Of a stretch of DNA of 64,000 nt, positions 11,251-44,738 are shown in pieces (positions within the stretch are counted from its first letter, which is position 1; each line of letters opens with the position of its first letter). The notes under the pieces were generated by a model. It made no database searches. It had not been told where the DNA came from and worked only from the letters and a program-made list of their open reading frames with translations. Source of the stretch: a virus (Duplodnaviria > Heunggongvirae > Uroviricota > Caudoviricetes); IMG/VR virus record IMGVR_UViG_3300028992_000036; one strand, given 5' to 3'. Position numbers and translations under genes: made by a program.

Positions 11251-11366
11251 AGATCCCTCTAAAACACACAGAGCGCGTCCATGCGCTCTAAAACAACTTG
11301 TTTACTGCATTTTCTAACCAACTTGTTTTCTGGGTTGTTTAATTAGGTCTGGGCATGTCTTATTAA

Positions 11367-16264: not shown

Positions 16265-16543
16265 ATGAGCGAAAAGAAAACAACTTATTGTCAGGTAGCA
16301 TTGTCTGATAAGGCCAATGACAAACTTGGAAAGTTTCAAGTGAAACTAAAAGAAAAAAATATCAAAATGTCTAAGGCTGAAGTCATAAATACCATTCTGG
16401 AACAATTGACAATGGCCGACTTTGACAAGGTTATATCTTCTGTCGGGGCTTCCGCTAAGACTCGTGAGAAAATCATGCGTATCTATGAGAACTCTAATAT
16501 GACAAAGGAAGATCTCGAAACGCTATTAAGCAGATTAAAATAA
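16265..16543 (+). CDS. small putative DNA-binding/regulatory protein
   Basis: 92 aa; begins 3 nt after helicase stop. Confidence 0.35.
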   Translation: MSEKKTTYCQVALSDKANDKLGKFQVKLKEKNIKMSKAEVINTILEQLTMADFDKVISSVGASAKTREKIMRIYENSNMTKEDLETLLSRLK

Positions 16544-17038: not shown

Positions 17039-17563
17039 ATGACAACCAAAGATATTACCTACGGTATCCAAGCTGAACTCTGGCCGCGAGATTACACTAA
17101 CGTTGAAAAACTACTGATGTTCTGGCGCAGAGAACAAATTCCTGTAAGGGTCACTCTCGAAGATGGCCAGGCGTTTTGCATGTACGTTTATGGCCTCATG
17201 CCATCTCGTAACAAAGTTGACCTTTGCCCAGCCCCTTTTGACAAAGAAAATCGTATAAGGCTCCCACTTGAACGCATTAGTACAATTGAATCAGGTGTGG
17301 TTGACAGTATCGCTCACGATTTCAAAGGTCGACTAACAGTTCACCCTGATTATGTCGATAATCGGCCATCACGCCGCGATTTTTTTGCAATTTGCAACCA
17401 AGCCTACAAAGCAAACAAATCTATAAGGGTGTACATGGCGGATGGCCGTGAAATTGAGGGGGTGTCAGCAGGCGCAGATGCTTGTCAGGTTACACTACGT
17501 GTCGAGAACGGTAGAAAAATAGTTGTTTTGTTCGATTGGGTTGAACGAATTTTGCCTTTTTGA
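17039..17563 (+). CDS. hypothetical protein
   Basis: 174-aa ORF from ATG 17039, directly after the lipoprotein stop. Confidence 0.4.
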   Translation: MTTKDITYGIQAELWPRDYTNVEKLLMFWRREQIPVRVTLEDGQAFCMYVYGLMPSRNKVDLCPAPFDKENRIRLPLERISTIESGVVDSIAHDFKGRLTVHPDYVDNRPSRRDFFAICNQAYKANKSIRVYMADGREIEGVSAGADACQVTLRVENGRKIVVLFDWVERILPF

Positions 17564-18859: not shown

Positions 18860-19063
18860 ATGGTCAGCTATGACAAGATCCGCGCAAAGTATCGCGCAAA
18901 GTATCGCGCTTATAAACTGGAATTAATCGATGATTTGATCGCGCAACGCGACCAATTAAATTTTACGTTTTCTGATTTGCTTAACAGCAAGCGAGATTGC
19001 AAGCGCAAACGTGAATACTTACGTTTAAGCGCATTAATCGGAAAACTTCAAAATTCTATTTAA
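18860..19063 (+). CDS. small basic hypothetical protein
   Basis: 67 aa; AAAGGAG RBS; contains a tandem 12-nt repeat encoding AKYRAKYRA. Confidence 0.4.
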   Translation: MVSYDKIRAKYRAKYRAYKLELIDDLIAQRDQLNFTFSDLLNSKRDCKRKREYLRLSALIGKLQNSI

Positions 19064-19084
19064 TTTTTTTTAAGGAGCTTAATC

Positions 19085-19315
19085 ATGTTTGTTCTTATCG
19101 CTGGCGTTAACGTCCATAATGAATATTATGTTAATCGCATCGCTGGGATCGCTGGTTACGCTGGGCGCGCAGTCGAGCTTATAGATGAAACGACGCGCAA
19201 AATTGACTTATTGAGCGACCAGGAGCGAAAAAAAGCAGACGTGAACGACGCTGATATATTTTTAATGTTAAAAGCGTTTGTAGAAATGGGATTTAAAATC
19301 AGTTTACACAAATAA
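19085..19315 (+). CDS. small hypothetical protein
   Basis: 76 aa; AAGGAG RBS 7 nt upstream. Confidence 0.4.
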   Translation: MFVLIAGVNVHNEYYVNRIAGIAGYAGRAVELIDETTRKIDLLSDQERKKADVNDADIFLMLKAFVEMGFKISLHK

Positions 19316-19320
19316 AATCG

Positions 19321-19346
19321 AGCGCCCACTATGGGCGCTTTTTTTC
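19321..19346 (+). terminator. Rho-independent terminator
   Basis: AGCGCCCACTATGGGCGCT hairpin + TTTTTTT; same hairpin (no T-run) at 18819-18839. Confidence 0.6.
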
Positions 19347-19367
19347 GTTTCCAATACACCTACCATA

Positions 19368-19392
19368 ACGCGCCATCATTGGCGCGTTTTTA
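19368..19392 (+). terminator. second hairpin terminator
   Basis: AACGCGCCA-tcat-TGGCGCGTT followed by TTTTT. Confidence 0.45.
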
Positions 19393-19804
19393 TTGTCTTT
19401 AACTCACTCCAACAACATAAAAATAAGCGCCAAAATAACGCCATAGACGCGCTTTTATATCCTTACCAGTACATGCCCATTACTTAACACATTAACGCGC
19501 TTAAAACGCATTATATTGCGCTATAGAGTATGGTTAATCATTGGCTTTTAGTCTTGCTATGTGATCCGCGTTTATTTGTCGGTGCGGATCGGCATTTTGT
19601 TTTGTTCTGTATCCGCTCGCGTATTATGTGCGCGTGATTTTTCACATAATCACACCACTTAATCACGTATGTGATTATGCTACGAAAGAAATCTGGATGT
19701 CTCAGGCGACGAAAGTCATCATAATTTCCCCCGCTCACCTGTCCGACAACCGCTGGTTGGATTCCACCAGCTTCCCGATGTTTTTTCTACACAAAGGCGA
19801 ATGC

Positions 19805-19921
19805 AGCCGTTTCCCGAAAAAATCCTGGCCGTTCCCCGTCGGCTCATGAATACGTTCCTCGCCGTTTCTGAAAATTTCCCTGCGGCAGCTGGTGGCTATA
19901 GAGAAAGGGCCGTTTCTGGCC
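19805..19921. repeat. iteron-like direct repeats (GCCGTT(T)CCC(C)GAA family), cluster 1
   Basis: 4-5 copies at ~20-22 bp spacing in a convergent intergenic region. Confidence 0.45.
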
Positions 19922-19931
19922 CTCTTCTCAG

Positions 19932-20414
19932 TTACACGCCATCAAGGATGTGGATGCGGTTGCTTGCGTATACATTCAGCATAAAGTTAGCGCAAAACAG
20001 TTTCCATGTATCAACGCCAGCGGTATACGTAATGTTTTTGCATTTAATTGCATTGTTGGCGATCCGCATCCCCTGCGATACTGCTTCATCGTCGGAAAAT
20101 TTGAACGACGATTGAGTTTTAATCCAGACAGAAATCTGCGTAGCGAACTCAATCAGCTTGGACTGGCAGAATCGCCCGGAGCGCACCGGAAAGACGAACG
20201 TTCCGAATCCAGAATTTACCACATATGCTTTCTCAAATACCCGCGAGTAACGACGATTGCCAATGATGTCGCGTGCAATAATGCATTTTTCTTGTGCTGA
20301 CAGTTCTACCGTCTCATTGTCGCGCCATGCACCAAGTACTCGTTTTTCAATGTCAGAGAACGTTACAGCGATATTGCCATGTGCGGGTGCGTTTACAGTA
20401 GCGATAAAATTCAT
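19932..20414 (-). CDS. hypothetical early protein
   Basis: 160 aa; AAGGA RBS; motif A upstream at 20435-20467. Confidence 0.5.
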   Translation of the reverse strand: MNFIATVNAPAHGNIAVTFSDIEKRVLGAWRDNETVELSAQEKCIIARDIIGNRRYSRVFEKAYVVNSGFGTFVFPVRSGRFCQSKLIEFATQISVWIKTQSSFKFSDDEAVSQGMRIANNAIKCKNITYTAGVDTWKLFCANFMLNVYASNRIHILDGV

Positions 20415-20764
20415 GATTAATTCCTTATCGTAAATAACAAATTGTTTTCTTGTTGGTGTTAATTATCGTTGTACGAATAAGGCGTCAAAGTGGAAAGTTG
20501 CGGTAGCCGGACGGGAACAGGTGGGTTTGTCGGTTGCCTGGAGGTAAGAGGTTGGTGTTATTAGCCTGAGGGAAACAGGATGGTCATTTAAGACCACCAA
20601 TGCTGGTGGCCTTAATAATTATCGCCCGATTACGCTAAGGATCTTTTCCTCAACTGATTTGTTGTTGCGACTAAACTGCCTTGCGTATCTGATGACAGAA
20701 GAGGCGTTTTGCTTTCTGACCATCTCGGCTCTTTCCTTCAGGCGTTTCTTGAAATCGCCCATAT

Positions 20765-21139
20765 TTACCACCAGGCGCAGAAGGTCAGTCTGTTATTGTG
20801 AAAGTCGTGGTTCTTAATCAGATCTTCCACAAGCTCTTTCAACTGCCCCACATCATGCCAGTAACCTTCGTCGTACTCCTGACTGCCGAAGAAAAAACCT
20901 TCCCGAGTAGGCAAGTACTCTTCGCAATTGCTTTCGTTTATGTGCATCAAATGAGCTTTCAGAAGACAAATGTCATTCATCGTTAATTCTAAAAGCTCAC
21001 AATTTTCGACTTCACCTACGTTGCGCTCCATCCACCCAACGAGCGCATTGAACTTACGGAAGTAAGCAACCTGCTTTCTGGATGCCTCGTTATTCAGATC
21101 GTTTTTAGGCTGTGTCTCGATATAGATATCAAGTCCCAT
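20765..21139 (-). CDS. small acidic hypothetical early protein
   Basis: ATG 21139 with AAGGAAA RBS; motif A core at 21196-21210. Confidence 0.5.
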   Translation of the reverse strand: MGLDIYIETQPKNDLNNEASRKQVAYFRKFNALVGWMERNVGEVENCELLELTMNDICLLKAHLMHINESNCEEYLPTREGFFFGSQEYDEGYWHDVGQLKELVEDLIKNHDFHNNRLTFCAWW

Positions 21140-21256
21140 GATGGTTTCCTTATTAACTTGCTTCAGTAAAATCATTTTCACAAATCAGATAAGGCAGAAA
21201 ACAAATTGTTATCGGGCTTAATAAAATGGCGCGGTTTACGCGCCATTTAAAGAGGA

Positions 21257-21652
21257 TTAAGCGAATACGCTTTCAGGGATTAAGGTGTCGGCAGGAATGC
21301 CAGAGGTAATGCGCAGGCCGTACTGACCAATCCAGGTAGTGTTGGTATTCAGGCTGGAGGCGAATACGGTGTTAACCATATTCATCATGGTTTCAAACAC
21401 CTCTTCATCAACCTGGCGGAAGTAGTTCTCGATTTTCAGCAGCAGCGGGTCAGTTGCATCGAGAATGGACTGGTATTGAGTCGCGTACTCGCCGCCGGAG
21501 GCATCACCTTTACGCACGATCGTACTGGCCTGGACTTCGGCACCAGTTTCGGTGTTGTACGTAACAACGGTAATTTTTGCCACATTCTTACCTTCGGCGG
21601 TTTCAGAGGCATAGTAAACATCAACTGTCAGTTTTTCGCGTTTAACGGTCAT
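21257..21652 (-). CDS. hypothetical protein
   Basis: 131 aa; GGAGAG RBS; preceded by motif B (21695-21716) and a terminator. Confidence 0.5.
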   Translation of the reverse strand: MTVKREKLTVDVYYASETAEGKNVAKITVVTYNTETGAEVQASTIVRKGDASGGEYATQYQSILDATDPLLLKIENYFRQVDEEVFETMMNMVNTVFASSLNTNTTWIGQYGLRITSGIPADTLIPESVFA

Positions 21653-21716
21653 TTCACTCTCCGTAGTGTCTTGATTATTTTTCTATTTTATAATCGTAGG
21701 TATGTACTTACAATAC

Positions 21717-21744
21717 AAAAAAGCCCCGTAAGGATGGCGGGGCT
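21717..21744 (-). terminator. Rho-independent terminator
   Basis: GCCCCG-taaggatgg-CGGGGC hairpin followed by TTTTTT on the minus strand. Confidence 0.5.
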
Positions 21745-21778
21745 GTCGTACGGTCGACTAATTACCACTTGCACATTA

Positions 21779-22090
21779 TCAGGCTATTGCCATCACTGAT
21801 GCTCTCTGAATTTCTTGCTGGGCCACGCGGTTAACTTCCATCAAAGCCAGTTCGAGCTGATGTTCCGGCCACATTCTTTGAAATGCCATCCAGCCTTTTC
21901 CACGCTGGCGACGAACATTCATTACATAACGAGTAAAGGTGTTTTTATCGAAAGACACCGCTGTTTCACGGAACAGACGAATAGAGGTTCCATTGGCAAC
22001 GATGTCCAGCAAAGTTAATTGAGCAACCAGCGCAGGCTTCTCTTTTCTCTTCTGGTCTTTGTCCAGACCAAGAACCAATGATTTTTTCAT
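21779..22090 (-). CDS. small basic hypothetical early protein
   Basis: ATG 22090 with GGAG RBS; motif A at 22102-22135. Confidence 0.45.
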   Translation of the reverse strand: MKKSLVLGLDKDQKRKEKPALVAQLTLLDIVANGTSIRLFRETAVSFDKNTFTRYVMNVRRQRGKGWMAFQRMWPEHQLELALMEVNRVAQQEIQRASVMAIA

Positions 22091-22244
22091 CACAACTCCG
22101 TAAACAACTTGTTTTCTCAATGGCGTAAATAATACCAGTAAGAAAACGGCTACAAAGCATATTGATCAGGTGTATGAGCGATATGCAGGTTCTTCCCTGC
22201 GGCTACAGATGAAGTTAAGCCAGCATTGCTGGCTTTGGTTGGGT

Positions 22245-22574
22245 TTACTCGAATACTTCAAGAAACTCCTGAACGTCCCAATGCTGGACGAGGTGAAGAT
22301 AGACCTTAGAAATCACGTCATTTTCGCTATCGCATGTGAAGTAGTACTTCTGGCTGCGGTTGTATGTGTCCACACAAAATTCGCTCATATCCATAAAGTC
22401 AGCATCTTCACCCATGTCGCAAATCATCAAAGCAGGTGCATCATCACGAGTCATCAGCTCCAGCACCCATCTTGAATTAATCAGAGTGGAAGACCAACCT
22501 TCCAGCTCATAGAACTGGTCAAACTCTTTTTGAGTTAATTTCTTGATTTGGTTGATGTCGATATTTGCAAACAT
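22245..22574 (-). CDS. small highly acidic hypothetical early protein
   Basis: ATG 22574 with AAGGA RBS; motif A directly upstream (22586-22620); D/E-rich composition. Confidence 0.5.
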   Translation of the reverse strand: MFANIDINQIKKLTQKEFDQFYELEGWSSTLINSRWVLELMTRDDAPALMICDMGEDADFMDMSEFCVDTYNRSQKYYFTCDSENDVISKVYLHLVQHWDVQEFLEVFE

Positions 22575-22929
22575 AAAGCAATCCTTAAACAACATGTTTT
22601 CTTGATGGTGTTATTATCGCAATAACGCACAGGCGAAAAAGGATTTTATTCCGGTGAATATGGTTTTGGCAGTGAGTTTTCAGGTTCAGTACCGAGTATA
22701 CTTTTTACATTATTCTGATTTAGTGGCCGAAGGTGGCTGGTGGGCAGAATAATCCTCTCCCCGAAAACCTACTGAAATCGATTGTGACCCGTTGGCTGTC
22801 TGGCACAATTACGCTGTAGCTGGGCATTCAGAGGGAATCCAGCGGTAAGCAAGTCCGCCTACGTGAGCGCCTCTCTTCTTCCCGCACATTACAGGTGGGT
22901 AGCCGCAACTCTCCCTCTCGCTATACCGG

Positions 22930-23075
22930 TACGCCGCCGTTCCTGAACCGGCATCGAGCCTTTTCCCGAAATCCACACAGGCAACTCGACCGTTTCCCTG
23001 AAAACCTCCAGCCGTTCCCCGAAGGCAACCCAGCCGTTTCTGTAGCGGGATGCAACCTTTTCCCTGTATGGACCG
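22930..23075. repeat. iteron-like direct repeats (CCGTT(T)CCC(T)GAA family), cluster 2
   Basis: About six copies at ~21-bp phase; same family as 19805-19921. Confidence 0.45.
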
Positions 23076-24136
23076 AAGGCTGACCGTAGGGGTGTTACGG
23101 GGGATAAAATCAGGAGTTGAATAAATACGAAAAAGGAGGCGACACCCCTCCTTCCCTCCCCACTTATACATACCTGGCTTCTTCGCTATACATGTTGTGT
23201 TTTATCTGTCTCAACCTCTCTATAGGCGTTAATGCTCACTCCTTCCAGAATGTTCTATACGGCAACTATTTCTGTTGGTGAATTGGGTGTGTTGTTCTCT
23301 CTGTCGGTGTATGTGGTTTCGTTCGTTTTGCGGTGGTTCTTCTATGGGGTGTTCTCGTCGTTTTGGTGATTGTTCTTCTCCGTGTATGGAGTAATGGCAG
23401 GTGGGCGATTCCTTTCGTTGTTGTGTTTGAGTTGTTTGTCTGGAGTGTGTGAAAGGCTTTTGCAGTTATTCGTGTATTGGGTAATGGCATTTCCCGTGAT
23501 TGTTGTGTTTCGTGTCTTTTGGGATTGAGAGAAACCTTGCGGTTACAGGCTTCGTTGGGGTTTCAGTGATTCTGGTGTTCTTCGCTGTTTGGGGAATGGC
23601 GTGTCGTGGGTATCGCGCGTATGAATGTTTTCGGATTGCCTGTGAAAGTTAGGTTGGTTGTCCGGTAGCCTGGGGAGAAGAGGTGGGTCTTTTCGGTAGC
23701 CTGCCATAAAGAGGTTGGTTGTTTTTGGAAATGGCATTTGTGTTATTTAGTTGTTTTGTTATGCCTGAAAATAAGTTGTTTATATGGTTGTGTAACGCAA
23801 CGGGAGCGATTTTGAGCGTGTGTTTTTGTTGGTAGTATGTTGGGTCGTCTGTGGTGAAAATTGGACGCTGTGGCGCTGTCTGCTGCGTAGAGTTACGGGT
23901 ATAAGCAGTGATGTGTGAAAACGTCAATTTTTTAGACCAAATCGGGTGAAAGCGTTGATGTTTCGTTGATCTGTTATTCAGTTGTTTTCTTGATTGTATA
24001 AACAACTATAACTTATTGATATTTAAGGATGTGATTGCGGGTATGGAAGAAGAGTAGTGGCGATCAACGGATTCTTATAGAAAAGAATCAAATTGTGACC
24101 GCCATTATCAACTGATTGATTTGTTTACTTGTGTAG

Positions 24137-24535
24137 TCAGTTCTCGAAATGAATAGGGTCAACGTAATGCCGCTCACCGCTTTTACCATTACACAGCACT
24201 GTAACTTTCGCCTTTTCACTCCAGGCTGAGTATAGAAAGTTCCCATCAGGTTGAACATGGTAACGAGAGAAGTAAACATCGCCGACTGAGGCGTCGAACA
24301 TGTTCCTATCTTTTTCACTTTGGGCAAGCGAGATGGATATCACCGAATTCCCATTTGGGGAAACGATTTTAAATTTATTCCCTATATCCATAACAATATT
24401 GTAACCAGGTAATTGCTTGTGTGTTTCCGGATCTATTTTCATGCATCGTGGGTACACGATAGTGTTAGGCTCTTCAACTGGCGTGGCATTAGCAGAAAGC
24501 ACAAAAAATATTAGTGCCAATGGTGCATATTTCAT
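24137..24535 (-). CDS. small secreted protein, putative
   Basis: Signal peptide MKYAPLALIFFVLSANA; GAGGGA RBS; 132 aa; low GC. Confidence 0.5.
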   Translation of the reverse strand: MKYAPLALIFFVLSANATPVEEPNTIVYPRCMKIDPETHKQLPGYNIVMDIGNKFKIVSPNGNSVISISLAQSEKDRNMFDASVGDVYFSRYHVQPDGNFLYSAWSEKAKVTVLCNGKSGERHYVDPIHFEN

Positions 24536-24735
24536 TTATCCCTCACAATTTCCAATTTTCCAGACCATCGTCTATTTCAGCGTCAGGGTGGAATTGTACC
24601 GCATCAAATCCTACATCGAGCACCTTTCGAATGTTCTTGATGGTTAGACTGGCCCCCTGAATCTCCAGACAACCAGTATCACTTAAATAAGTGATAGTCT
24701 TAATACTAGTTTTTAGACTAGTCATTGGAGAACAG

Positions 24736-25101
24736 ATGATTGATGTCTTAGGGCCGGAGAAACGCAGACGGCGTACCACACAGGAAAAGATCGCAATTGT
24801 TCAGCAGAGCTTTGAACCGGGGATGACGGTCTCCCTCGTTGCCCGGCAACATGGTGTAGCAGCCAGCCAGTTATTTCTCTGGCGTAAGCAATACCAGGAA
24901 GGAAGTCTTACTGCTGTCGCCGCCGGAGAACAGGTTGTTCCTGCCTCTGAACTTGCTGCCGCCATGAAGCAGATTAAAGAACTCCAGCGCCTGCTCGGCA
25001 AGAAAACGATGGAAAATGAACTCCTCAAAGAAGCCGTTGAATATGGACGGGCAAAAAAGTGGATAGCGCACGCGCCCTTATTGCCCGGGGATGGGGAGTA
25101 A
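24736..25101 (+). CDS. insC: IS2 transposase OrfA (InsC)
   Basis: [32 protein letters not shown]... recognised as IS2 InsC. Confidence 0.85.
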
Positions 25102-25964
25102 GCTTAGTCAGCCGTTGTCTCCGGGTGTCGCGTGCGCAGTTGCACGTCATTCTCAGACGAACCGATGACTGGATGGATGGCCGCCGCAGTCGTCACACTG
25201 ATGATACGGATGTGCTTCTCCGTATACACCATGTTATCGGAGAGCTGCCCACGTATGGTTATCGTCGGGTATGGGCGCTGCTTCGCAGACAGGCAGAACT
25301 TGATGGTATGCCTGCGATCAATGCCAAACGTGTTTACCGGATCATGCGCCAGAATGCGCTGTTGCTTGAGCGAAAACCTGCTGTACCGCCATCGAAACGG
25401 GCACATACAGGCAGAGTGGCCGTGAAAGAAAGCAATCAGCGATGGTGCTCTGACGGGTTCGAGTTCTGCTGTGATAACGGAGAGAGACTGCGTGTCACGT
25501 TCGCGCTGGACTGCTGTGATCGTGAGGCACTGCACTGGGCGGTGACTACCGGCGGCTTCAACAGTGAAACAGTACAGGACGTCATGCTGGGAGCGGTGGA
25601 ACGCCGCTTCGGCAACGATCTTCCGTCGTCTCCAGTGGAATGGCTGACGGATAATGGTTCATGCTACCGGGCTAATGAAACACGCCAGTTCGCCCGGATG
25701 TTGGGACTTGAACCGAAGAACACGGCGGTGCGGAGTCCGGAGAGTAACGGAATAGCAGAGAGCTTCGTGAAAACGATAAAGCGTGACTACATCAGTATCA
25801 TGCCCAAACCAGACGGGTTAACGGCAGCAAAGAACCTTACAGAGGCGTTCGAGCATTATAACGAATGGCATCCGCATAGTGCGCTGGGTTATCGCTCGCC
25901 ACGGGAATATCTGCGGCAGCGGGCTTGTAATGGGTTAAGTGATAACAGATGTCTGGAAATATAG
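25059..25964 (+). CDS. insD: IS2 transposase OrfB (InsD), DDE catalytic domain
   Basis: GTG start; [23 protein letters not shown]... recognised as IS2 InsD; overlaps insC in the -1 frame. Confidence 0.85.
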
Positions 25965-26165
25965 GGGCAAATCCAATGGTTTGCTATGTGACACCGTAAT
26001 CACGCAGCTTTTCTTCCCTCCCCTGACTCCCCCATACTCCGTTTCTGTACCCAATTGAGTCCGAGATTGTATGGTGCTCGAAACAGATATTTGGTAGACA
26101 CTCAGAGTCATGCTGTGTAACGAGGGTAGGGCTACTAACTGTCGTCTTATACAATTTGGTGAGTT

Positions 26166-26414
26166 TCAGCATTTTACCACCCCGTTCGGAAACAACTCAT
26201 TCGCCGTAGTTGATATAACCTCCCAATTAACGCCGACATCAGCGTTATGGCATTGTCTGATTTTTTGCATCACCTGTACGCATTGTTCATCAGTGAGATC
26301 TGTCCTTACTTCAGCAATATCTTCTTTGTGCCACATAACCATGAGTAAGGGTTCGTCTTCTGGATAGTTTTTCAGTTTCTCGATGATTTCTTTTGCTGTT
26401 CCAAACATCTTCAT
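26166..26414 (-). CDS. small acidic hypothetical protein with two upstream motif-A copies
   Basis: 82 aa; GGAG RBS; motif A at 26419-26453 and 26467-26486 links it to the phage-like early genes. Confidence 0.45.
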   Translation of the reverse strand: MKMFGTAKEIIEKLKNYPEDEPLLMVMWHKEDIAEVRTDLTDEQCVQVMQKIRQCHNADVGVNWEVISTTANELFPNGVVKC

Positions 26415-26520
26415 CTCCTAAACAATTTGTTTTCTTATATGACTTATTATCTCAATCAACAAAAGGTAGAAAACAAATTGTTTTAGAGTTTGTTAAAGTC
26501 AGAAGGGGTTGTGTCTATAT

Positions 26521-26546
26521 GAAAATGCCCGGCGTGTTGCCGGGCA
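26521..26546 (-). terminator. metG intrinsic terminator
   Basis: GCCCGGC-aacac-GCCGGGC hairpin followed by ATTTT on the minus strand, ~25 nt after the metG stop. Confidence 0.5.
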
Positions 26547-26567
26547 TTGCGAAGAGAGGTTGTTTAA

Positions 26568-28601
26568 TTACTTAACCTGGTGGCCAGGTTTAGCACCAGC
26601 ATCCGGGCTTAACAGGAAGATATCTTTCCCGCCGGGGCCAGCAGCCATCACCATGCCTTCAGAGATACCGAAGCGCATTTTACGTGGTGCCAGGTTAGCC
26701 ACCATAATGGTGTGACGACCAATCAGTGCCTGTGGATCTGGATAAGCGGAACGGATGCCTGAGAAGACATTACGCTTTTCACCACCGAGATCCAGCGTCA
26801 GGCGAAGCAGTTTGTCAGAACCTTCTACAAACTCTGCGTTTTCAATCAGCGCCACGCGCAGGTCAACTTTGGCGAAGTCGTCAAAGGTGATAGTTTCCTG
26901 AATCGGGTCGTCAGCCAGTGGGCCAGTTACCGGTGCGGCTGTGGCTTTCACTTCTTCTTTGGATGCTTCCACCAGTGCTTCAACCTGCTTCATATCGATG
27001 CGGTTATACAGTGCCTTGAACGGATTCACTTTATGGCCCAGCAGCGGTTGCTGGATACCATCCCAGGTCAGTTCTGTATTCAGGAATGCTTCTGCACGTT
27101 CAGTCAGTTTCGGCAGTACCGGTTTCAGGTACGTCATCAGCACGCGGAACAGGTTAATGCCCATAGAGCAAATCGCCTGCAGATCGGCATCGCGTCCTTC
27201 CTGCTTTGCCACCACCCACGGAGCCTGTTCATCAACATAGCGGTTAGCCAGGTCAGCCAGTGCCATGATTTCACGGATAGCTTTGCCAAATTCGCGGCTT
27301 TCCCATGCTTCGCCAATCACTTCAGCGGCATCAGTAAAGGTTTTGTACAGTTGCGGGTCAGCCAGTTCGCTTGCCAGCACGCCGTCAAAACGCTTGTTGA
27401 TAAAGCCTGCATTACGGGAGGCCAGGTTAACCACTTTGTTAACGATATCGGCATTCACACGCTGAACGAAATCTTCCAGGTTGAGATCGATATCATCAAT
27501 GCGCGAAGAGAGTTTCGCAGTGTAGTAGTAACGCAGGCTGTCGGCGTCAAAATGATTCAGCCAGGTGCTGGCTTTAATAAAGGTGCCGCGAGACTTGGAC
27601 ATCTTCGCGCCGTTCACCGTCACATAGCCGTGAACAAACAGGTTGGTCGGCTTGCGGAAGTTGCTGCCTTCCAGCATGGCAGGCCAGAACAGGCTGTGGA
27701 AGTAAACGATATCTTTGCCGATGAAGTGGTACAGCTCGGCGGTGGAGTCTTTCTTCCAGTATTCGTCGAAGCTGGTAGTGTCGCCGCGTTTGTCGCACAG
27801 ATTCTTGAAGGAACCCATGTAGCCAATCGGCGCGTCCAGCCAGACGTAGAAGTATTTGCCCGGTGCGTTCGGAATTTCAAAACCGAAGTAAGGTGCGTCA
27901 CGGGAGATATCCCACTGTTGCAGGCCAGATTCAAACCACTCCTGCATTTTGTTTGCCACCTGCTCCTGCAACGCACCGCTGCGGGTCCATGCCTGCAACA
28001 TTTCGCTGAAAGAAGGCAGATCAAAGAAGAAGTGTTCGGAATCACGCATTACCGGTGTAGCGCCAGAAACCACTGATTTCGGCTCGATCAGTTCCGTCGG
28101 GCTGTATGTCGCGCCGCAGACTTCACAGTTATCGCCGTATTGATCCGGCGCTTTACATTTCGGGCATGTGCCTTTTACAAAACGGTCCGGCAGGAACATG
28201 CCTTTTTCCGGGTCGTACAGCTGAGAGATGGTGCGGTTTTTAATAAAACCGTTCTCTTTCAGGCGAGTATAGATAAGCTCGGACAACTGACGGTTCTCTT
28301 CGCTGTGCGTCGAGTGATAGTTGTCATAGCTGATGTTAAAGCCTGCGAAATCAGTCTGATGTTCCTGACTCATTTCGCCAATCATCTGTTCCGGTGTGAT
28401 ACCAAGCTGCTGTGCTTTCAGCATGATTGGCGTACCGTGGGCATCGTCGGCACAGATGAAATTAACCTCGTGGCCGCGCATTCGCTGGTAACGAACCCAG
28501 ACATCAGCCTGGATGTGCTCCAGCATATGGCCGAGGTGGATTGAGCCGTTAGCGTACGGCAGCGCGCACGTCACCAGAATTTTCTTCGCGACTTGGGTCA
28601 T
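26568..28601 (-). CDS. metG: methionyl-tRNA synthetase
   Basis: Protein from [29 protein letters not shown]... with class I HIGH motif (HLGH) and KMSKS; 677 aa; track ORF over-extended by 43 codons. Confidence 0.95.
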
Positions 28602-28758
28602 AGTAGGCATTACTTCTTTGTAGTGAAAAGGGGCTTGATAGTAACAAAATGGCCTTATGTCTGCCATGTGATAACAGCATTTCTCATAAATGATTAAATG
28701 TCGTAGCTGGAGTACACTACAAGGCGACAATTGCGCAAATTAAAATAAAGGAGACGGG

Positions 28759-29859
28759 ATGAGCGAGTCCAAATCGCCGGATGCCCTGAGAGCAATGGTA
28801 GCCGGTACGCTGGCTAATTTTCAGCACCCAACCCTGAAACACAACCTGACTACGCTTAAAGCGTTACACCATGTTGCGTTGATGGATGACACACTGCATG
28901 TCGAACTAATCATGCCTTTCGTGTGGAATAAGCCTTTTGAAGACCTGAAAGAGCAATGTAGTGGTGATCTGCTCCGTATCACTGGCGCAAAGGCTATTGA
29001 CTGGAAGCTGTCGTACAACATTGCCACGCTTAAGCGCGTCAAAAACCAACCAGGCATTAATGGCGTTAAGAACATTATCGCCGTCAGCTCAGGCAAGGGC
29101 GGCGTGGGTAAATCCTCCACGGCGGTAAACCTGGCACTGGCGTTGGCTGCTGAAGGTGCGAAAGTTGGTATTTTGGATGCCGATATCTATGGTCCATCAA
29201 TTCCAACCATGCTGGGCGCGGAAAACCAACGTCCAACCTCACCGGACGGTACTCACATGGCACCTATCATGTCTCATGGCCTGGCAACCAACTCTATTGG
29301 TTATCTGGTCACCGACGACAATGCAATGGTGTGGCGTGGACCGATGGCCAGCAAGGCGCTGATGCAGATGTTGCAGGAAACACTGTGGCCTGATCTGGAC
29401 TATCTCGTTCTCGATATGCCACCGGGCACTGGTGATATTCAATTGACGCTGGCGCAGAACATTCCTGTAACTGGTGCGGTTGTGGTAACTACGCCGCAAG
29501 ACATCGCGCTGATCGATGCGAAGAAAGGCATTGTGATGTTCGAAAAAGTCGAAGTGCCGGTACTGGGTATCGTTGAAAACATGAGTGTGCATATTTGCAG
29601 TAACTGCGGTCATCACGAGCCAATTTTTGGCACCGGTGGCGCACAGAAACTGGCCGAGAAATACAACACGCAGTTGTTAGGCCAAATGCCACTTCATATC
29701 TCTCTTCGTGAAGATCTGGATAACGGAACACCAACCGTTATTAGTCGTCCAGATAGTGAATTTACGGCTATTTATCGTGACCTCGCAGATCGCGTTGCTG
29801 CCCAAATGTATTGGCAAGGTGAAGTAATACCTGGCGAAATCGCATTCCGCGCAGTGTGA
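28759..29859 (+). CDS. apbC: Fe-S cluster carrier ATPase ApbC/Mrp
   Basis: P-loop [12 protein letters not shown], CxxC region ICSNCGHHE; divergent from metG as in E. coli; GGAG RBS. Confidence 0.9.
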
Positions 29860-29995: not shown

Positions 29996-30104
29996 GAGCG
30001 CCAGCGGCGAACATATGAGCTTCGGAAATACTAGACATTCTTAACTCCGTTGTTTTCTAGTTGTGGTTATTTTCACAAATAAGAAAAGATAGAAAACAAT
30101 TTAT

Positions 30105-30135
30105 TTAAGGCCACAACTTATGGCCTTTATTTATT
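30105..30135. terminator. bidirectional hairpin terminator candidate
   Basis: GGCCA-caactta-TGGCC hairpin flanked by T-rich runs on both strands. Confidence 0.4.
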
Positions 30136-32989: not shown

Positions 32990-33130
32990 AATTACACCAT
33001 TAAATAATTTGTTTTCTGATTGGTGTAATTATCGCAAACTTGAAAAGGCATAAAAGCTGCATTCATAGGCGTTACAGCAGATTTAAGGCGTAAAAATGGG
33101 GGCTGTCGCCCCCTGTCGACTGGTGCTGTA

Positions 33131-33697: not shown

Positions 33698-33994
33698 GTG
33701 TTTTTCCTAATGCTTAAACAAGTTGTTTTCTTATTGTCTTTATTGTGATGTGGCATAAAAGGGGAGCAAGCTAAACGTAAAGGTGCAAACTCTCTATTTC
33801 GGTCAACGAAACACAAGGGCCATTTGGCCCTTGTCATTAACACTTTGCTTTACGAACTAACGGATAAGCGAAGTAGATCGCCAAACCAATGAGGACGCCA
33901 TCAGAAATGACAGACATCATCTTTCCCGTAAAATCCACCAACACCGCCATCACCAGAAGAGCAATGACGATCACAAGCCGGAATCTCTCAAGCA

Positions 33995-34420: not shown

Positions 34421-34513
34421 GTGCTTTCCTTTTATTATTTGTCAAAACAAGTTGTTTTCTAATTACATAAATTGCTTACGCAGAGATGGTCAATGCATAT
34501 GCACTAACAGCCG

Positions 34514-42543: not shown

Positions 42544-43413
42544 TTATTTTTTGATCATTCCGTACATTGCTGAGGCTTTAGCTTGCTCAACAAAGGAGGA
42601 TAAATCGACATCACTATAGGTTGGAGACTTCAGAATCTTTCCATCGGAAATTCGAAAACCGATCATCTTATCGGTGCCATCAGCATGGCGAAATCCCAGG
42701 TCAGAAGAGTCGTATTTGCAGTTGGCCACAGCATGGCGACGCTCTTCGGCATCTGCAGGCCATAATTTTGTCATGTTGGACCGATGAATTTCGCCAACCA
42801 GCTCGACGACATTGATACCGAGAAAATCAGCCAGTCGATAAGTCATCATGCACGCCACATAGATTTTGTTCATTACACGGCGCAGTTCCTGAATCAGCTC
42901 AGAATCCTTAACAGTCTTCTTCTCAAGTTTATCTGCCAGCTCTTCGAGCATACATGACGCCTCACGAGCTTCCTGAAATGGCATTGCCATATCATCGAAA
43001 ACAGTGTTACCAGGCACAAAAATTGTCTGCATAAAGCGATCAATGCTCTGTTCCTGCGTGTAATAAGTCATGCCGGTAGAAATACCACCTTTGATGGCGA
43101 CCATCGTACCAACACCAACGTATAAAAAGTCGGCCATTGCATCCAGCAGTTGCTCAATATCCCCATTCATTGCGGCTGGAATACCTTCCACTACAGCTTC
43201 TTCATGAATCAGGCTTGCACGGAGACGAAGCAGCTCTGGTGTCGGCATAACGCGTCTCGGATGCTGGAAGAGTTCATGAAACTGATCGACCATCTTGTAA
43301 ATACTTTCAGTGGCTACACCATGGCCTTCATGCAATTCATATGGTTCTGGCTTAAATCCAATGAGTCGATCGGTGGCAAGTTTCAGGTGGTCAGTCAGTT
43401 TGGTAAAGTTCAT
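42544..43413 (-). CDS. MazG-like nucleotide pyrophosphohydrolase, putative (tandem repeat)
   Basis: Two EExxE...D-type helical segments; weak assignment; GAAGGA RBS. Confidence 0.35.
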   Translation of the reverse strand: MNFTKLTDHLKLATDRLIGFKPEPYELHEGHGVATESIYKMVDQFHELFQHPRRVMPTPELLRLRASLIHEEAVVEGIPAAMNGDIEQLLDAMADFLYVGVGTMVAIKGGISTGMTYYTQEQSIDRFMQTIFVPGNTVFDDMAMPFQEAREASCMLEELADKLEKKTVKDSELIQELRRVMNKIYVACMMTYRLADFLGINVVELVGEIHRSNMTKLWPADAEERRHAVANCKYDSSDLGFRHADGTDKMIGFRISDGKILKSPTYSDVDLSSFVEQAKASAMYGMIKK

Positions 43414-44633: not shown

Positions 44634-44738
44634 GTGTTTTTCCTTTTTCTTTTTTATGTGTTTAAACAAGTTGTTATCTTATTTGTTTAAACAAGGCTTA
44701 CAAATCAAAGAGAAGGTGGGGATACACCCCACCATATG

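What the first reader, a model, noticed from the sequence alone, without database searches (positions are those of the whole stretch)
19932..22574. Cassette of small, mostly acidic early proteins under motif-A promoters
Five consecutive minus-strand genes (103-160 aa), plus a sixth at 26166-26414, encode unrecognised proteins, several strongly D/E-rich. Each has its own motif-A element and a good RBS. Small acidic early proteins behind individual strong promoters are the usual signature of phage anti-restriction or other anti-defence factors.
Basis: inference. Interest (0 to 1): 0.7.

Follow-up and report, generated by a model that had tools for sequence, protein, structure and literature searches.

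The report
Phage-plasmid cassette of operator-controlled small genes
A stretch of an E. coli phage-plasmid (SSU5/Cyrano type) carries a row of small, separately switched genes that stay silent while the element lives as a plasmid; two have relatives next to known anti-restriction genes on conjugative plasmids, so some may help incoming DNA survive host defences, but no function is proven.

Summary
The window is a ~110-kb SSU5/Cyrano-type phage-plasmid of E. coli, not a simple phage. The five minus-strand genes and the sixth are real and conserved, but only three of the five are acidic, and only moderately (pI 4.2-4.75, 13-20% D+E). g1 and g4 are basic.

"Motif-A" is a 17-bp palindrome (AGAAAACAAnTTGTTTA) about 10 nt downstream of an extended -10 box and just upstream of the RBS, an operator-like position. 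It precedes g1, g4, g5 and g6, lies in inverted form upstream of g2, and is absent from g3. Each gene ends in a hairpin, so these are insulated single-gene units.

In published RNA-seq of phage Cyrano (cassette 98% identical), these genes sit at or near background in lysogens.

g1, g3 and g4 are conserved across the SSU5 supergroup; g2 and g5 are variable.

g2 homologues sit beside ArdA and ArdB/KlcA genes, and g6 homologues lie in IncF leading regions.

Verdict: an anti-defence or establishment role is plausible for g2, g6 and perhaps g5, and unproven for the rest.

The parts
19932..20414 (-). g1, 160 aa, basic (pI 9.2). Core gene of the SSU5 supergroup, function unknown.
   Evidence: ORF. 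phrog_1641 at E 7e-97. 70% identical in SSU5 and 30% in pCP102/L006. No Pfam, PDB or PADLOC match.
20434..20450 (-). Motif-A operator-like palindrome of g1 (AGAAAACAATTTGTTAT). It lies 10 nt downstream of cGATAAT and 19 nt upstream of the ATG.
20619..20762 (-). g1b, 47-aa very basic ORF (pI 11). Its ATG lies 2 nt after the g2 stop. Equivalent to CYRAN_109.
   Evidence: It is the only cassette gene clearly above background in Cyrano lysogens (about 6x). Found only in close relatives.
20765..21139 (-). g2, 124 aa, acidic (pI 4.75). Member of a broad family with the signature MGLDIYF...FRKxN...PTxEGFFFGSxEYDxxY. Best candidate for an anti-restriction or decoy protein.
21196..21212 (+). Distal, inverted motif-A copy upstream of g2, located just after the g3 terminator.
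21257..21652 (-). g3, 131 aa, acidic (pI 4.5). Core gene, also present in N15-like phage-plasmids (phiKO2 Gp62). Has no motif-A.
   Evidence: phrog_2473.. No PDB profile hit.
21685..21713 (-). Sigma-70-like promoter of g3 (TTGTAA-17-TAAAAT).
21779..22090 (-). g4, 103 aa, basic (pI 10.5). Core gene with a conserved C-terminal AQQEIQRA motif. Possible nucleic-acid binder (inference).
   Evidence: phrog_5125..
22101..22117 (-). Perfect motif-A copy of g4 (AGAAAACAAGTTGTTTA), 10 nt upstream of the ATG and abutting the SD.
22245..22574 (-). g5, 109 aa, the most acidic (pI 4.2, net charge -14). Orphan family confined to SSU5-type phage-plasmids.
22586..22602 (-). Motif-A copy of g5 (AGAAAACATGTTGTTTA), preceded by TTGCGATAAT and followed by AAGGA.
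26166..26408 (-). g6, 80 aa, acidic (pI about 4.9). Relatives are labelled DUF1380 in RefSeq and lie in IncF leading regions.
   Evidence: phrog_10258.. Pfam DUF1380 was not matched here.
26419..26484 (-). g6 control region. It holds a proximal motif-A (26419-26435), TTGAGATAAT, and a distal inverted motif-A (26468-26484), with centres 49 bp apart.
   Evidence: (I9). SSU5 has the same two-copy layout.
19901..19929 (-). Hairpin after the g1 stop codon. Similar hairpins lie at 20588-20615 (after g1b), 21224-21248 (after g3, followed by a U-tract), 21722-21744 (after g4, followed by U6) and 22217-22235 (after g5).
   Evidence: Three of the five have z of about -3.9 to -4.1.
17039..17563 (+). FljA-like gene (Pfam Flag1_repress). 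A candidate regulator, conserved together with motif-A. This link is a hypothesis only.
   Evidence: E 2.5e-84.. Expressed in Cyrano lysogens (CYRAN_114).

Best explanation
This is the accessory or 'establishment' end of the long leftward gene block of an SSU5/Cyrano-type phage-plasmid.

Architecture. It is a string of insulated single-gene units. Most units consist of an extended -10 sigma-70 promoter (TGnGATAAT), a 17-bp palindromic operator (motif-A) over the transcription start and 5' leader, a strong RBS, a small ORF and a terminator hairpin.

Regulation. A so far unidentified element-encoded factor that recognises motif-A keeps these genes, and a wider motif-A regulon, off while the element is maintained as a plasmid. 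In a naive cell after injection, or after induction, the factor is absent or inactivated and the genes fire.

Composition. The cassette mixes a conserved core (g1, g3, g4; unknown, probably life-cycle functions) with variable acidic cargo (g2, g5 and the outlying g6). The acidic cargo most likely acts as protein decoys or inhibitors of host DNA-targeting enzymes, such as restriction or other nucleases or nucleoid proteins. [quoted passage not shown]

Shown: gene reality, module architecture, conservation, and silence in lysogens.
Inferred: repressor binding, expression on entry, and anti-defence activity.
For: - Element identity: 98% identical to about 110-kb E. coli plasmids and to phages Cyrano and CMS-2020a. 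It was found in 242 of 5426 E. coli genomes, always on plasmids.
- Module: motif-A is enriched, at 19 copies against 6.4 expected. The composite -10 plus motif occurs 4 times against 0.03 expected. Nine sense-oriented copies lie 10-39 nt upstream of start codons.
- Module conservation: the same module is conserved in SSU5, in a divergent lineage L006 and in pCP102. Two-copy layouts have centres 49-51 bp apart.
- Insulation: hairpins follow each gene.
- Silence in lysogeny: Cyrano LB counts are g2 5.7, g4 12.2, g5 12.8, g3 17 and g1 25.5, against a background of about 9.6 and 95.8 for repressor CYRAN_45. g5 rises about 10-fold in macrophages (PMC9928086).
- Core versus variable genes.
- g6: relatives lie in IncF leading regions near an antirestriction gene, DUF1380 genes and orphan methylases.
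- Concept: leading regions are anti-defence islands rich in uncharacterised genes (PMC11541004).
Against: - No cassette protein matches any known anti-defence, DNA-mimic or other family by sequence.
- Two of the five proteins are basic.
- g2's invariant residues (M1 G2 D4, FRKxN, PTxEGFFFG, YDxxY) look like a binding pocket or active site rather than a charge-array DNA mimic.
- In four virulent phages, g2 relatives sit inside the DNA-metabolism module next to dUTPase and DNA ligase. This fits a replication accessory role equally well.
- g1, g3 and g4 are conserved core genes, and g3's relative in phiKO2 follows a holin-like gene.
- Motif-A also precedes the gene upstream of the large terminase and several DNA-metabolism genes, so it does not mark an 'early' class.
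- The motif-A binder is unidentified, and motif-A is absent from the control region of the putative master repressor CYRAN_45.
- DefenseFinder surveys find almost no known anti-defence genes in SSU5-group elements (10.1101/2025.09.12.675607).
Confidence: 0.45

Rival explanations
1. The cassette genes are life-cycle or DNA-metabolism accessory factors of the phage-plasmid (replication, recombination, lysis timing, or the lysis-lysogeny or plasmid-copy decision). They are not anti-defence factors. Motif-A simply marks the general lytic regulon.
For: - g1, g3 and g4 are conserved in every SSU5-supergroup lineage examined.
- The g3 homologue in phiKO2 is the last gene of an operon with a holin-like gene.
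- Distant g2 relatives are embedded next to dUTPase, DNA ligase, RNR, helicase and PolA in four virulent phages.
- Motif-A also precedes DNA-metabolism and packaging genes.
- g2 has an enzyme-like set of invariant residues.
Against: - g2 and g6 relatives also occur in conjugative-plasmid leading regions beside ArdA, ArdB and methylases, where no phage replication or lysis function applies.
- g2 and g5 are patchy or variable within the supergroup.
- Acidity is conserved in these families.
Confidence: 0.3
2. Motif-A acts at the RNA level. It is the 5'-leader operator of the element's FljA-like protein (17039-17563), a translational repressor of the family that silences fliC mRNA. The cassette would then be controlled post-transcriptionally rather than by a DNA-binding repressor.
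For: - Strong Flag1_repress match at E 2.5e-84.
- FljA-type proteins prevent fliC mRNA translation (PMC2652032).
- Proximal motif-A copies are always sense-oriented and abut the SD.
- The Salmonella and Citrobacter fliC leader carries CAAGTTGT, the motif-A core, 7 nt upstream of its SD.
- An FljA-like gene co-occurs with motif-A in the window, SSU5, pJN2-26 and pCP102.
- CYRAN_114 is expressed in lysogens.
- There is weak similarity to Hfq: a sub-threshold Pfam hit and a 14-aa segment with z about 4.4.
Against: - Several promoters carry a second, inverted copy at a fixed 49-51 bp upstream, outside the transcript. The -10-to-motif spacing is also fixed. Both features point to DNA-level control.
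- mRNA levels themselves are at background in lysogens.
- The 8-mer match to fliC is post hoc.
- Co-occurrence has no discriminating power, because every relative examined has both features.
- The internal Sm-like repeat is not statistically supported.
- The default role of a phage-borne FljA would be to repress host flagellin.
Confidence: 0.15
3. The genes are lysogenic-conversion morons, or defence or superinfection-exclusion genes, that act while the element is a resident plasmid.
For: - Each gene has a moron-like unit of its own promoter plus terminator.
- The region varies between relatives.
- g3 has an operator-free promoter.
- g1b (CYRAN_109) is expressed about 6x above background in lysogens.
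Against: - g1 to g5 are at or near background in Cyrano lysogens and were not called morons by the authors.
- There are no PADLOC hits.
- None has a membrane or signal sequence. The signal-peptide ORF at 24137-24535 lies outside the cassette.
Confidence: 0.07
4. The alternating acidic and basic small proteins (g5/g4, g2/g1b) are toxin-antitoxin or addiction pairs that stabilise the plasmid state.
For: - The charges of neighbouring proteins alternate.
- The g1b start codon lies 2 nt after the g2 stop, which suggests coupling.
- The control regions have palindromic operators.
- Cyrano carries several other TA systems.
Against: - g4 and g5 each have their own promoter, operator and terminator, and their order is swapped in L006.
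- TA loci are expressed in the plasmid state, yet g2, g4 and g5 are silent.
- No TA family matches in Pfam, NCBIfam or PADLOC.
Confidence: 0.03

Closest known systems
Anti-defence islands in the leading regions of conjugative plasmids (Samuel et al., Nature 2024, PMC11541004)
   Same: - Both are clusters of small, mostly uncharacterised genes that are individually or locally promoted, quiet in the established element, and thought to fire on entry.
- Two families are actually shared. g2 relatives lie beside ArdA and ArdB/KlcA. g6 relatives lie among DUF1380 genes, an antirestriction gene and orphan methylases.
- The surrounding phage-plasmid DNA also carries ParB-N-domain genes, an orphan Dam methylase and DUF4942.
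   Different: - The element enters as injected double-stranded phage DNA. There is no oriT, T-strand or Frpo single-strand promoter.
- Control is instead by a phage-plasmid-specific extended -10 plus motif-A module, which is not found in the conjugative loci.
- No known anti-defence gene is present in this cassette.
- Half of the genes are conserved core genes.
DNA-mimic anti-restriction proteins Ocr (T7 gp0.3) and ArdA
   Same: They are small, acidic proteins expressed from strong promoters before the host can attack incoming DNA.
   Different: - There is no sequence match.
- Acidity is much weaker, with net charge -7 to -14 against about -28 for Ocr (Ocr sequence recalled from memory).
DMP12 (Neisseria DNA mimic that binds HU; PDB 3w1o) and YfbM/DUF1877 (PDB 1ryl)
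   Different: - The g2 family profile finds neither protein at sequence level.
- g2 has a strongly conserved motif set not known from DMP12. This last point rests on my own knowledge and was not tested.
Dispersed-operator immunity regulon of phage-plasmid P1 (C1 repressor with many operators around the genome; established knowledge)
   Same: One short operator sequence is scattered in front of many separate transcription units of a phage-plasmid, overlapping sigma-70 promoters and holding lytic and accessory genes off in the plasmid state.
   Different: - The motif-A sequence is unrelated and palindromic, whereas the P1 C1 operator is asymmetric.
- The binding protein is unknown.
- Motif-A is absent from the control region of the putative master repressor CYRAN_45.
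Prophage morons
   Same: Single genes are bracketed by their own promoter and terminator and inserted between conserved genes.
   Different: Morons are defined by expression from the repressed prophage. These genes are silent in lysogens.

Membership tests
ArdA (PF07275), Ocr and ArdB/KlcA (PF03230) anti-restriction families | Sequence membership in the family profile | tested here: not met
   No Pfam or NCBIfam hit for any of g1 to g6 at E<=1. No PDB sequence hit, by single sequence or by profile.
DNA-mimic proteins (Ocr/ArdA/DMP12/Arn type) | Very high density of surface Asp/Glu imitating the DNA phosphate backbone (typically >25% D+E and a large negative net charge) | tested here: not met
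   D+E is 20% for g5, 17.7% for g2 and 13% for g3, with net charges of -14, -11 and -7. g1 and g4 are basic. Moderate acidity is, however, conserved across the g2 and g5 families. The surface charge geometry of the models could not be examined.
DNA-mimic proteins (DMP12 fold) | Clear structural similarity to a solved DNA mimic | tested here: inconclusive
   [not shown]
DNA-mimic or anti-restriction proteins | Binds and inhibits a restriction enzyme or other DNA-binding protein and relieves restriction in vivo | not testable with these tools
   Requires expressing each ORF in R-M, BREX or other defence strains, plus pull-downs.
Anti-defence island (leading-region type) | Co-location with known anti-defence genes | tested here: inconclusive
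   No known anti-defence gene lies in or next to this cassette. DefenseFinder surveys find little in SSU5-group elements. However, g2 and g6 homologues elsewhere lie beside ArdA, ArdB, an antirestriction gene and methylases.
Anti-defence island (leading-region type) | Silent in the established element, with a burst of expression on entry into a new cell | tested here: inconclusive
   Silence in lysogens is shown by the published Cyrano RNA-seq. Expression on entry has not been tested by anyone, as far as I found.
Early gene class of the phage | Shared regulatory signal restricted to early genes | tested here: not met
   Motif-A also precedes the gene upstream of the large terminase (11290, 11315), DUF4942, a TerB-like gene and an nrdB-region gene. 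g3 lacks it.
Prophage moron | Own promoter and terminator | tested here: met
Prophage moron | Expressed from the repressed prophage | tested here: not met
   g1 to g5 are at 0.6-2.7x background in Cyrano lysogens. Only g1b (CYRAN_109) is listed as above background.
DUF1380 (PF07128), for g6 | Match to the Pfam model | tested here: not met
   No DUF1380 hit at E<=1, although RefSeq names close homologues 'DUF1380 family protein'. Genuine DUF1380 genes are neighbours of g6-like genes in IncF plasmids.
Known anti-phage defence systems (PADLOC) | Match to any defence-system protein model | tested here: not met
   Zero hits for 8 proteins.
FljA / Flag1_repress (PF03614), for the candidate regulator at 17039-17563 | Match above the Pfam gathering score | tested here: met
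   281.7 bits against a cutoff of 24, E 2.5e-84. Binding to motif-A was not tested.

The most novel reading that the evidence does not exclude
Motif-A is the operator of the phage-plasmid's own FljA-like protein. Under this reading, FljA, known only as the flagellar phase-variation repressor that blocks fliC mRNA translation, is originally a phage-plasmid master regulator. It would hold a dispersed regulon of at least 12 leaders silent, including this candidate anti-defence cassette, by binding a short A-rich/U-rich palindrome next to the Shine-Dalgarno sequence. The Salmonella fliC leader (CAAGTTGT 7 nt upstream of its SD) would then be a captured copy of that operator.
Probability: 0.15. Interest if true: 0.75.

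Novelty: new variant of a known kind. Interest (0 to 1): 0.5.

Why it matters
SSU5-type phage-plasmids are common in clinical E. coli, Shigella, Salmonella and Klebsiella and carry resistance genes. Yet screens with known models find almost no anti-defence genes in them.

If this cassette is their counterpart of the plasmid leading-region anti-defence island, three things follow:
- It would explain how these large elements establish themselves in defended hosts.
- It would supply new inhibitor families. The g2 family is shared by conjugative plasmids, phage-plasmids and virulent phages. g5 is an orphan.
- It would provide a compact, portable promoter-operator module that marks further candidates in every relative.

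The motif-A regulon is also the first handle on how this phage-plasmid group silences its lytic and accessory genes.

Tried and rejected
- **Chromosomal prophage next to metG.** Rejected. The element itself carries metG and apbC, and all 256 matches in E. coli genomes are on plasmids.
- **Sequence searches.** Pfam, NCBIfam, PADLOC and PDB searches, with single sequences and with profiles, found nothing for g1 to g6. A phmmer hit of g5 to multicystatin (E 1e-4) had no stretch passing on its own and was ignored.
- **Rfam on 19000-27000.** No hits.
- **Motif-A as operator of the putative master repressor CYRAN_45.** Rejected. Motif-A is absent from the CYRAN_45/46 intergenic region, which has its own GGTAAG..CTTACC repeats.
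- **Testing the FljA idea by looking for a motif-A lineage without FljA.** This failed to discriminate, because pCP102 keeps both.
- **Tandem Sm-like repeat in the FljA-like protein.** Not supported (N-half against C-half is not significant). Only weak similarity to Hfq was found, and there was no PDB relative.
- **GGRAACGG repeats flanking the cassette as an Frpo-like single-strand promoter.** Not significant at 4 against 1.5 expected, and folding z is -0.4.
- **AFDB fold search.** Unavailable.
- **BFVD search for g5.** Gave nothing.
- **Other cassette genes in the ArdA/ArdB loci.** None. Only g2 is shared.
- **H121 as a conjugative context for g6.** It turned out to be phage-plasmid-derived DNA.
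Full report
**What the window is.** The region 19500-23000 is 98-99% identical to about 110-kb E. coli plasmids. It was found in 242 of 5426 complete genomes, with all 256 matches on plasmids and none on chromosomes. It also matches the phages Cyrano, CMS-2020a and PhiR41_1. The annotated relatives show the layout of an SSU5/pHCM2-type phage-plasmid: structural genes, two ParB-like genes and a UvsW-like helicase. A long leftward block follows, carrying nrdAB, thyA, dfrA51, an exonuclease, a Dam methylase, RNase H and DUF4942, plus the element's own metG and apbC. That block ends in the cassette under study. The metG at 26568-28730 is therefore cargo of the element, not a chromosomal flank.

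**The observation.** The five minus-strand ORFs and the sixth exist at the stated coordinates. Each matches a PHROG family of unknown function at E 1e-25 to 1e-97 and is annotated as hypothetical in relatives. I call them:
- g1, 19932-20414, 160 aa
- g2, 20765-21139, 124 aa
- g3, 21257-21652, 131 aa
- g4, 21779-22090, 103 aa
- g5, 22245-22574, 109 aa
- g6, 26166-26408, 80 aa

A seventh ORF was missed: g1b (20619-20762, 47 aa, pI 11), whose ATG lies 2 nt after the g2 stop. "Mostly acidic" is only partly right. g5 (pI 4.2, 20% D+E), g2 (4.75, 17.7%), g3 (4.5, 13%) and g6 (about 4.9) are acidic. g1 (9.2) and g4 (10.5) are basic. Even the acidic ones fall far short of a classic DNA mimic such as T7 Ocr, which has 29% D+E and net charge -28 (sequence from memory).

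**Motif-A.** The repeated element is the palindrome AGAAAACAAnTTGTTTA.
- Its 13-bp core occurs 19 times in the window against 6.4 expected (0 of 100 shuffles).
- The composite ATAAT-N8-13-AGAAAACA occurs 4 times against 0.03 expected.
- Read on the coding strand, the units are TGnGATAAT (an extended -10 box with no good -35), then 10-11 nt, then motif-A, then 0-20 nt containing the SD, then ATG.
- The motif therefore lies at about +3 to +20, an operator-like position, and is not itself the promoter.
- g1, g4, g5 and g6 have such a proximal, sense-oriented copy.
- g6 also has a second, inverted copy 49 bp upstream. So do a small ORF at about 30040 and the SSU5 and L006 equivalents, at 49-51 bp.
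- g2 has only the distal inverted copy and a degenerate proximal one.
- g3 has none, and has its own TTGTAA-17-TAAAAT promoter.
- Stable hairpins follow g5, g4, g3, g2/g1b and g1. Three have z about -4, and two are followed by U-tracts.

The cassette is thus a row of insulated single-gene transcription units. Motif-A is not confined to it. It also precedes DUF4942, a TerB-like gene, a gene in the nrd region and the gene just upstream of the large terminase, so it marks a wide regulon rather than an "early" class.

**Conservation of the module.** The same promoter-operator module precedes the orthologous genes in Salmonella phage SSU5, in a divergent Enterobacteriaceae lineage (L006) and in Enterobacter plasmid pCP102. 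It is absent from the conjugative-plasmid loci that carry g2 homologues.

**Expression.** PMC9928086 reports RNA-seq of E. coli LF82, whose plasmid pLF82 is phage Cyrano. Cyrano's cassette is 98% identical to the window. Overnight LB normalised counts were as follows.

| Gene | Cyrano locus | Count |
|---|---|---|
| g2 | CYRAN_108 | 5.7 (essentially zero reads) |
| g4 | CYRAN_106 | 12.2 |
| g5 | CYRAN_105 | 12.8 |
| g3 | CYRAN_107 | 17 |
| g1 | CYRAN_111 | 25.5 |
| g1b | CYRAN_109 | 57.9 |
| putative repressor | CYRAN_45 | 95.8 |
| element background | | about 9.6 |

g5 rises about ten-fold in macrophages. Cyrano is induced 39-fold by ciprofloxacin. So the cassette is quiet in the plasmid-prophage state, which argues against moron or defence roles and for expression on entry or induction. 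Expression on entry has not been measured.

**Who binds motif-A?** It is not the putative master repressor. The CYRAN_45/46 control region lacks motif-A and has different repeats.

One candidate lies 2.4 kb from the cassette: the ORF at 17039-17563, a strong member of the FljA family (Pfam Flag1_repress, E 2.5e-84). FljA-type proteins stop translation of fliC mRNA (PMC2652032). The Salmonella and Citrobacter fliC leader, retrieved from reference genomes, reads AACATCAAGTTGTAATTGATAAGGA. It shares the 8-mer CAAGTTGT with motif-A at a similar distance from the SD. The FljA-like gene co-occurs with motif-A in all four lineages checked and is expressed in lysogens.

Against this, the fixed -10-to-motif spacing, the distal inverted copies outside the transcript, and the low mRNA levels favour DNA-level repression. 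The 8-mer match is post hoc. Co-occurrence does not discriminate. Only weak similarity to Hfq was found, with no solved relative. I keep this as a 15% hypothesis. Other candidates are g4 (basic, core, preceded by a perfect motif-A) and the 92-aa ORF at 16265-16543, whose Cyrano equivalent CYRAN_117 is 12x background in lysogens.

**Core and variable genes.** g1, g3 and g4 have orthologues in the same place in SSU5 (70, 55 and 64% identity), in Klebsiella pJN2-26, and in the most divergent lineages L006 and pCP102 (30-41%). g3 also occurs in N15-like phage-plasmids. There, as phiKO2 Gp62, it follows a holin-like gene. g5 is present in only two lineages, always at this position. The slot between g3 and g1 holds different genes in different relatives: g2 here, phrog_1845 in SSU5, both in Cyrano, and four other small genes in L006.

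**The proteins.** None matches Pfam, NCBIfam, PADLOC or any PDB sequence, even with family profiles.

**Guilt by association.**
- A g2 homologue common in E. coli (P0041, 37% identity) lies two genes upstream of ArdA in an IncI-like plasmid region with DUF1281, LPD29 and PilI.
- Another (P0030, 47%) lies 12 nt upstream of a PF03230 Antirestrict (ArdB/KlcA) gene, followed by a polyvalent-protein metallopeptidase and a TraI relaxase.
- A third lies near TraT and Hok, on a contig that ends just downstream.
- g6-like genes in IncF plasmids lie in the classical leading region, between orphan methylases, DUF1380 genes and an antirestriction gene.
- Leading regions are established anti-defence islands rich in uncharacterised genes (PMC11541004).
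- On the other side, four more distant g2 relatives in large virulent phages sit inside the DNA-metabolism module beside dUTPase/dCTP deaminase, DNA ligase, RNR, helicase and PolA. One context is uninformative.

An inhibitor of a host DNA-processing enzyme fits both settings. So does a replication accessory factor.

**Verdict.** The structural part of the finding is real and more interesting than described. It is a conserved, portable promoter-operator-gene-terminator module that builds a variable cassette at the end of the leftward block of SSU5-type phage-plasmids and is silent in lysogeny.

The functional reading is plausible for g2 and g6 (by association) and possible for g5 (conserved acidity, orphan, variable). 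It is unsupported for g1, g3 and g4, which behave as conserved core genes, two of them basic. I put 0.45 on the combined explanation and about 0.3 on a life-cycle or DNA-metabolism role instead. The cassette is a new variant of a known kind, a phage-plasmid analogue of the leading-region anti-defence island with its own control logic, and is not a member of any defined anti-defence family.

Noticed in passing
window 16961/17039-17563 (+): An FljA-like gene (Pfam Flag1_repress, E 2.5e-84) is carried by the phage-plasmid and conserved in SSU5, pJN2-26, Cyrano (CYRAN_114) and pCP102. It may repress host flagellin, be the motif-A regulator, or both. There is weak, sub-threshold similarity to Hfq.
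   Followed up: partly
window 22600-24100: An ORF-free stretch of about 1.5 kb with strong strand skew (the minus strand is A/C-rich). It contains iteron-like repeats CGGTAGCCTGG..AGAGGTGGGT at 23663-23724, with three more copies at 20501-20589 between g1 and g1b. It also has a motif-A copy at 23766 preceded by CGCTCCCGTTGCGTT, which is conserved in SSU5 and L006. No Rfam hit. It could be a non-coding RNA, an origin or a partition site.
   Followed up: partly
window 20619-20762 (-): g1b (CYRAN_109), a 47-aa very basic ORF whose ATG lies 2 nt after the g2 stop, reads about 10x higher than g2 in Cyrano lysogens. This implies an internal promoter, a stable small RNA or an antisense signal. It occurs only in close relatives.
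   Followed up: partly
window 11288-11331; 30042-30107; 33001-33017; 33715-33731; 34444-34460; 44663-44679: Further motif-A copies lie in front of other genes. These are the gene upstream of the large terminase (two tandem copies), a small ORF next to the S24/LexA-like gene, DUF4942, a 188-aa ORF, a TerB-like gene and a gene in the nrd region. Together they form a dispersed regulon across the element.
   Followed up: partly
window 24654-25967: An IS3-family (IS2-like) insertion sequence with 33-bp inverted repeats and orfA/orfB, inserted between the 132-aa signal-peptide ORF (24137-24535) and g6. It is absent at this site in pM160133_p3 and Cyrano.
   Followed up: no
window 26568-29859: The phage-plasmid carries a full-length methionyl-tRNA synthetase (metG) and an apbC/minD-like gene as cargo, as in Cyrano and pM160133_p3. 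The apbC-like gene (CYRAN_99) is expressed in lysogens.
   Followed up: no
L002/L003 (NZ_CP022167.1 83129-83524): In plasmid pM160133_p3 the g3 orthologue is annotated as a pseudogene with an internal stop. g3 is therefore dispensable for plasmid maintenance, at least in that host.
   Followed up: no
L025, L054, L018, L035, L080 (fliC leaders of Salmonella and Citrobacter): The fliC 5' leader (...AACATCAAGTTGTAATTGATAAGGAAAAGATCATG) is identical across Salmonella subspecies and several Citrobacter species. It contains the motif-A core CAAGTTGT. The E. coli and Shigella leader differs (ATCAACGACTTGCAAT).
   Followed up: partly
L122, L129, L130, L132 (metagenomic virulent-phage contigs): Distant g2-family genes recur in a conserved neighbourhood of dUTPase/dCTP deaminase, then one to several small genes (or a PIF1-like helicase), then the g2-like gene, then DNA ligase and a phage sigma-70 and PolA. 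This hints at a DNA-metabolism-linked role for that branch of the family.
   Followed up: partly
L011 (Cyrano 42574-42826): The divergent control region of the putative master repressor CYRAN_45 carries its own repeats (GGTAAGTGCTTACC, CCTTACC, GGTAAG). These are distinct from motif-A, so the element has at least two operator systems.
   Followed up: no
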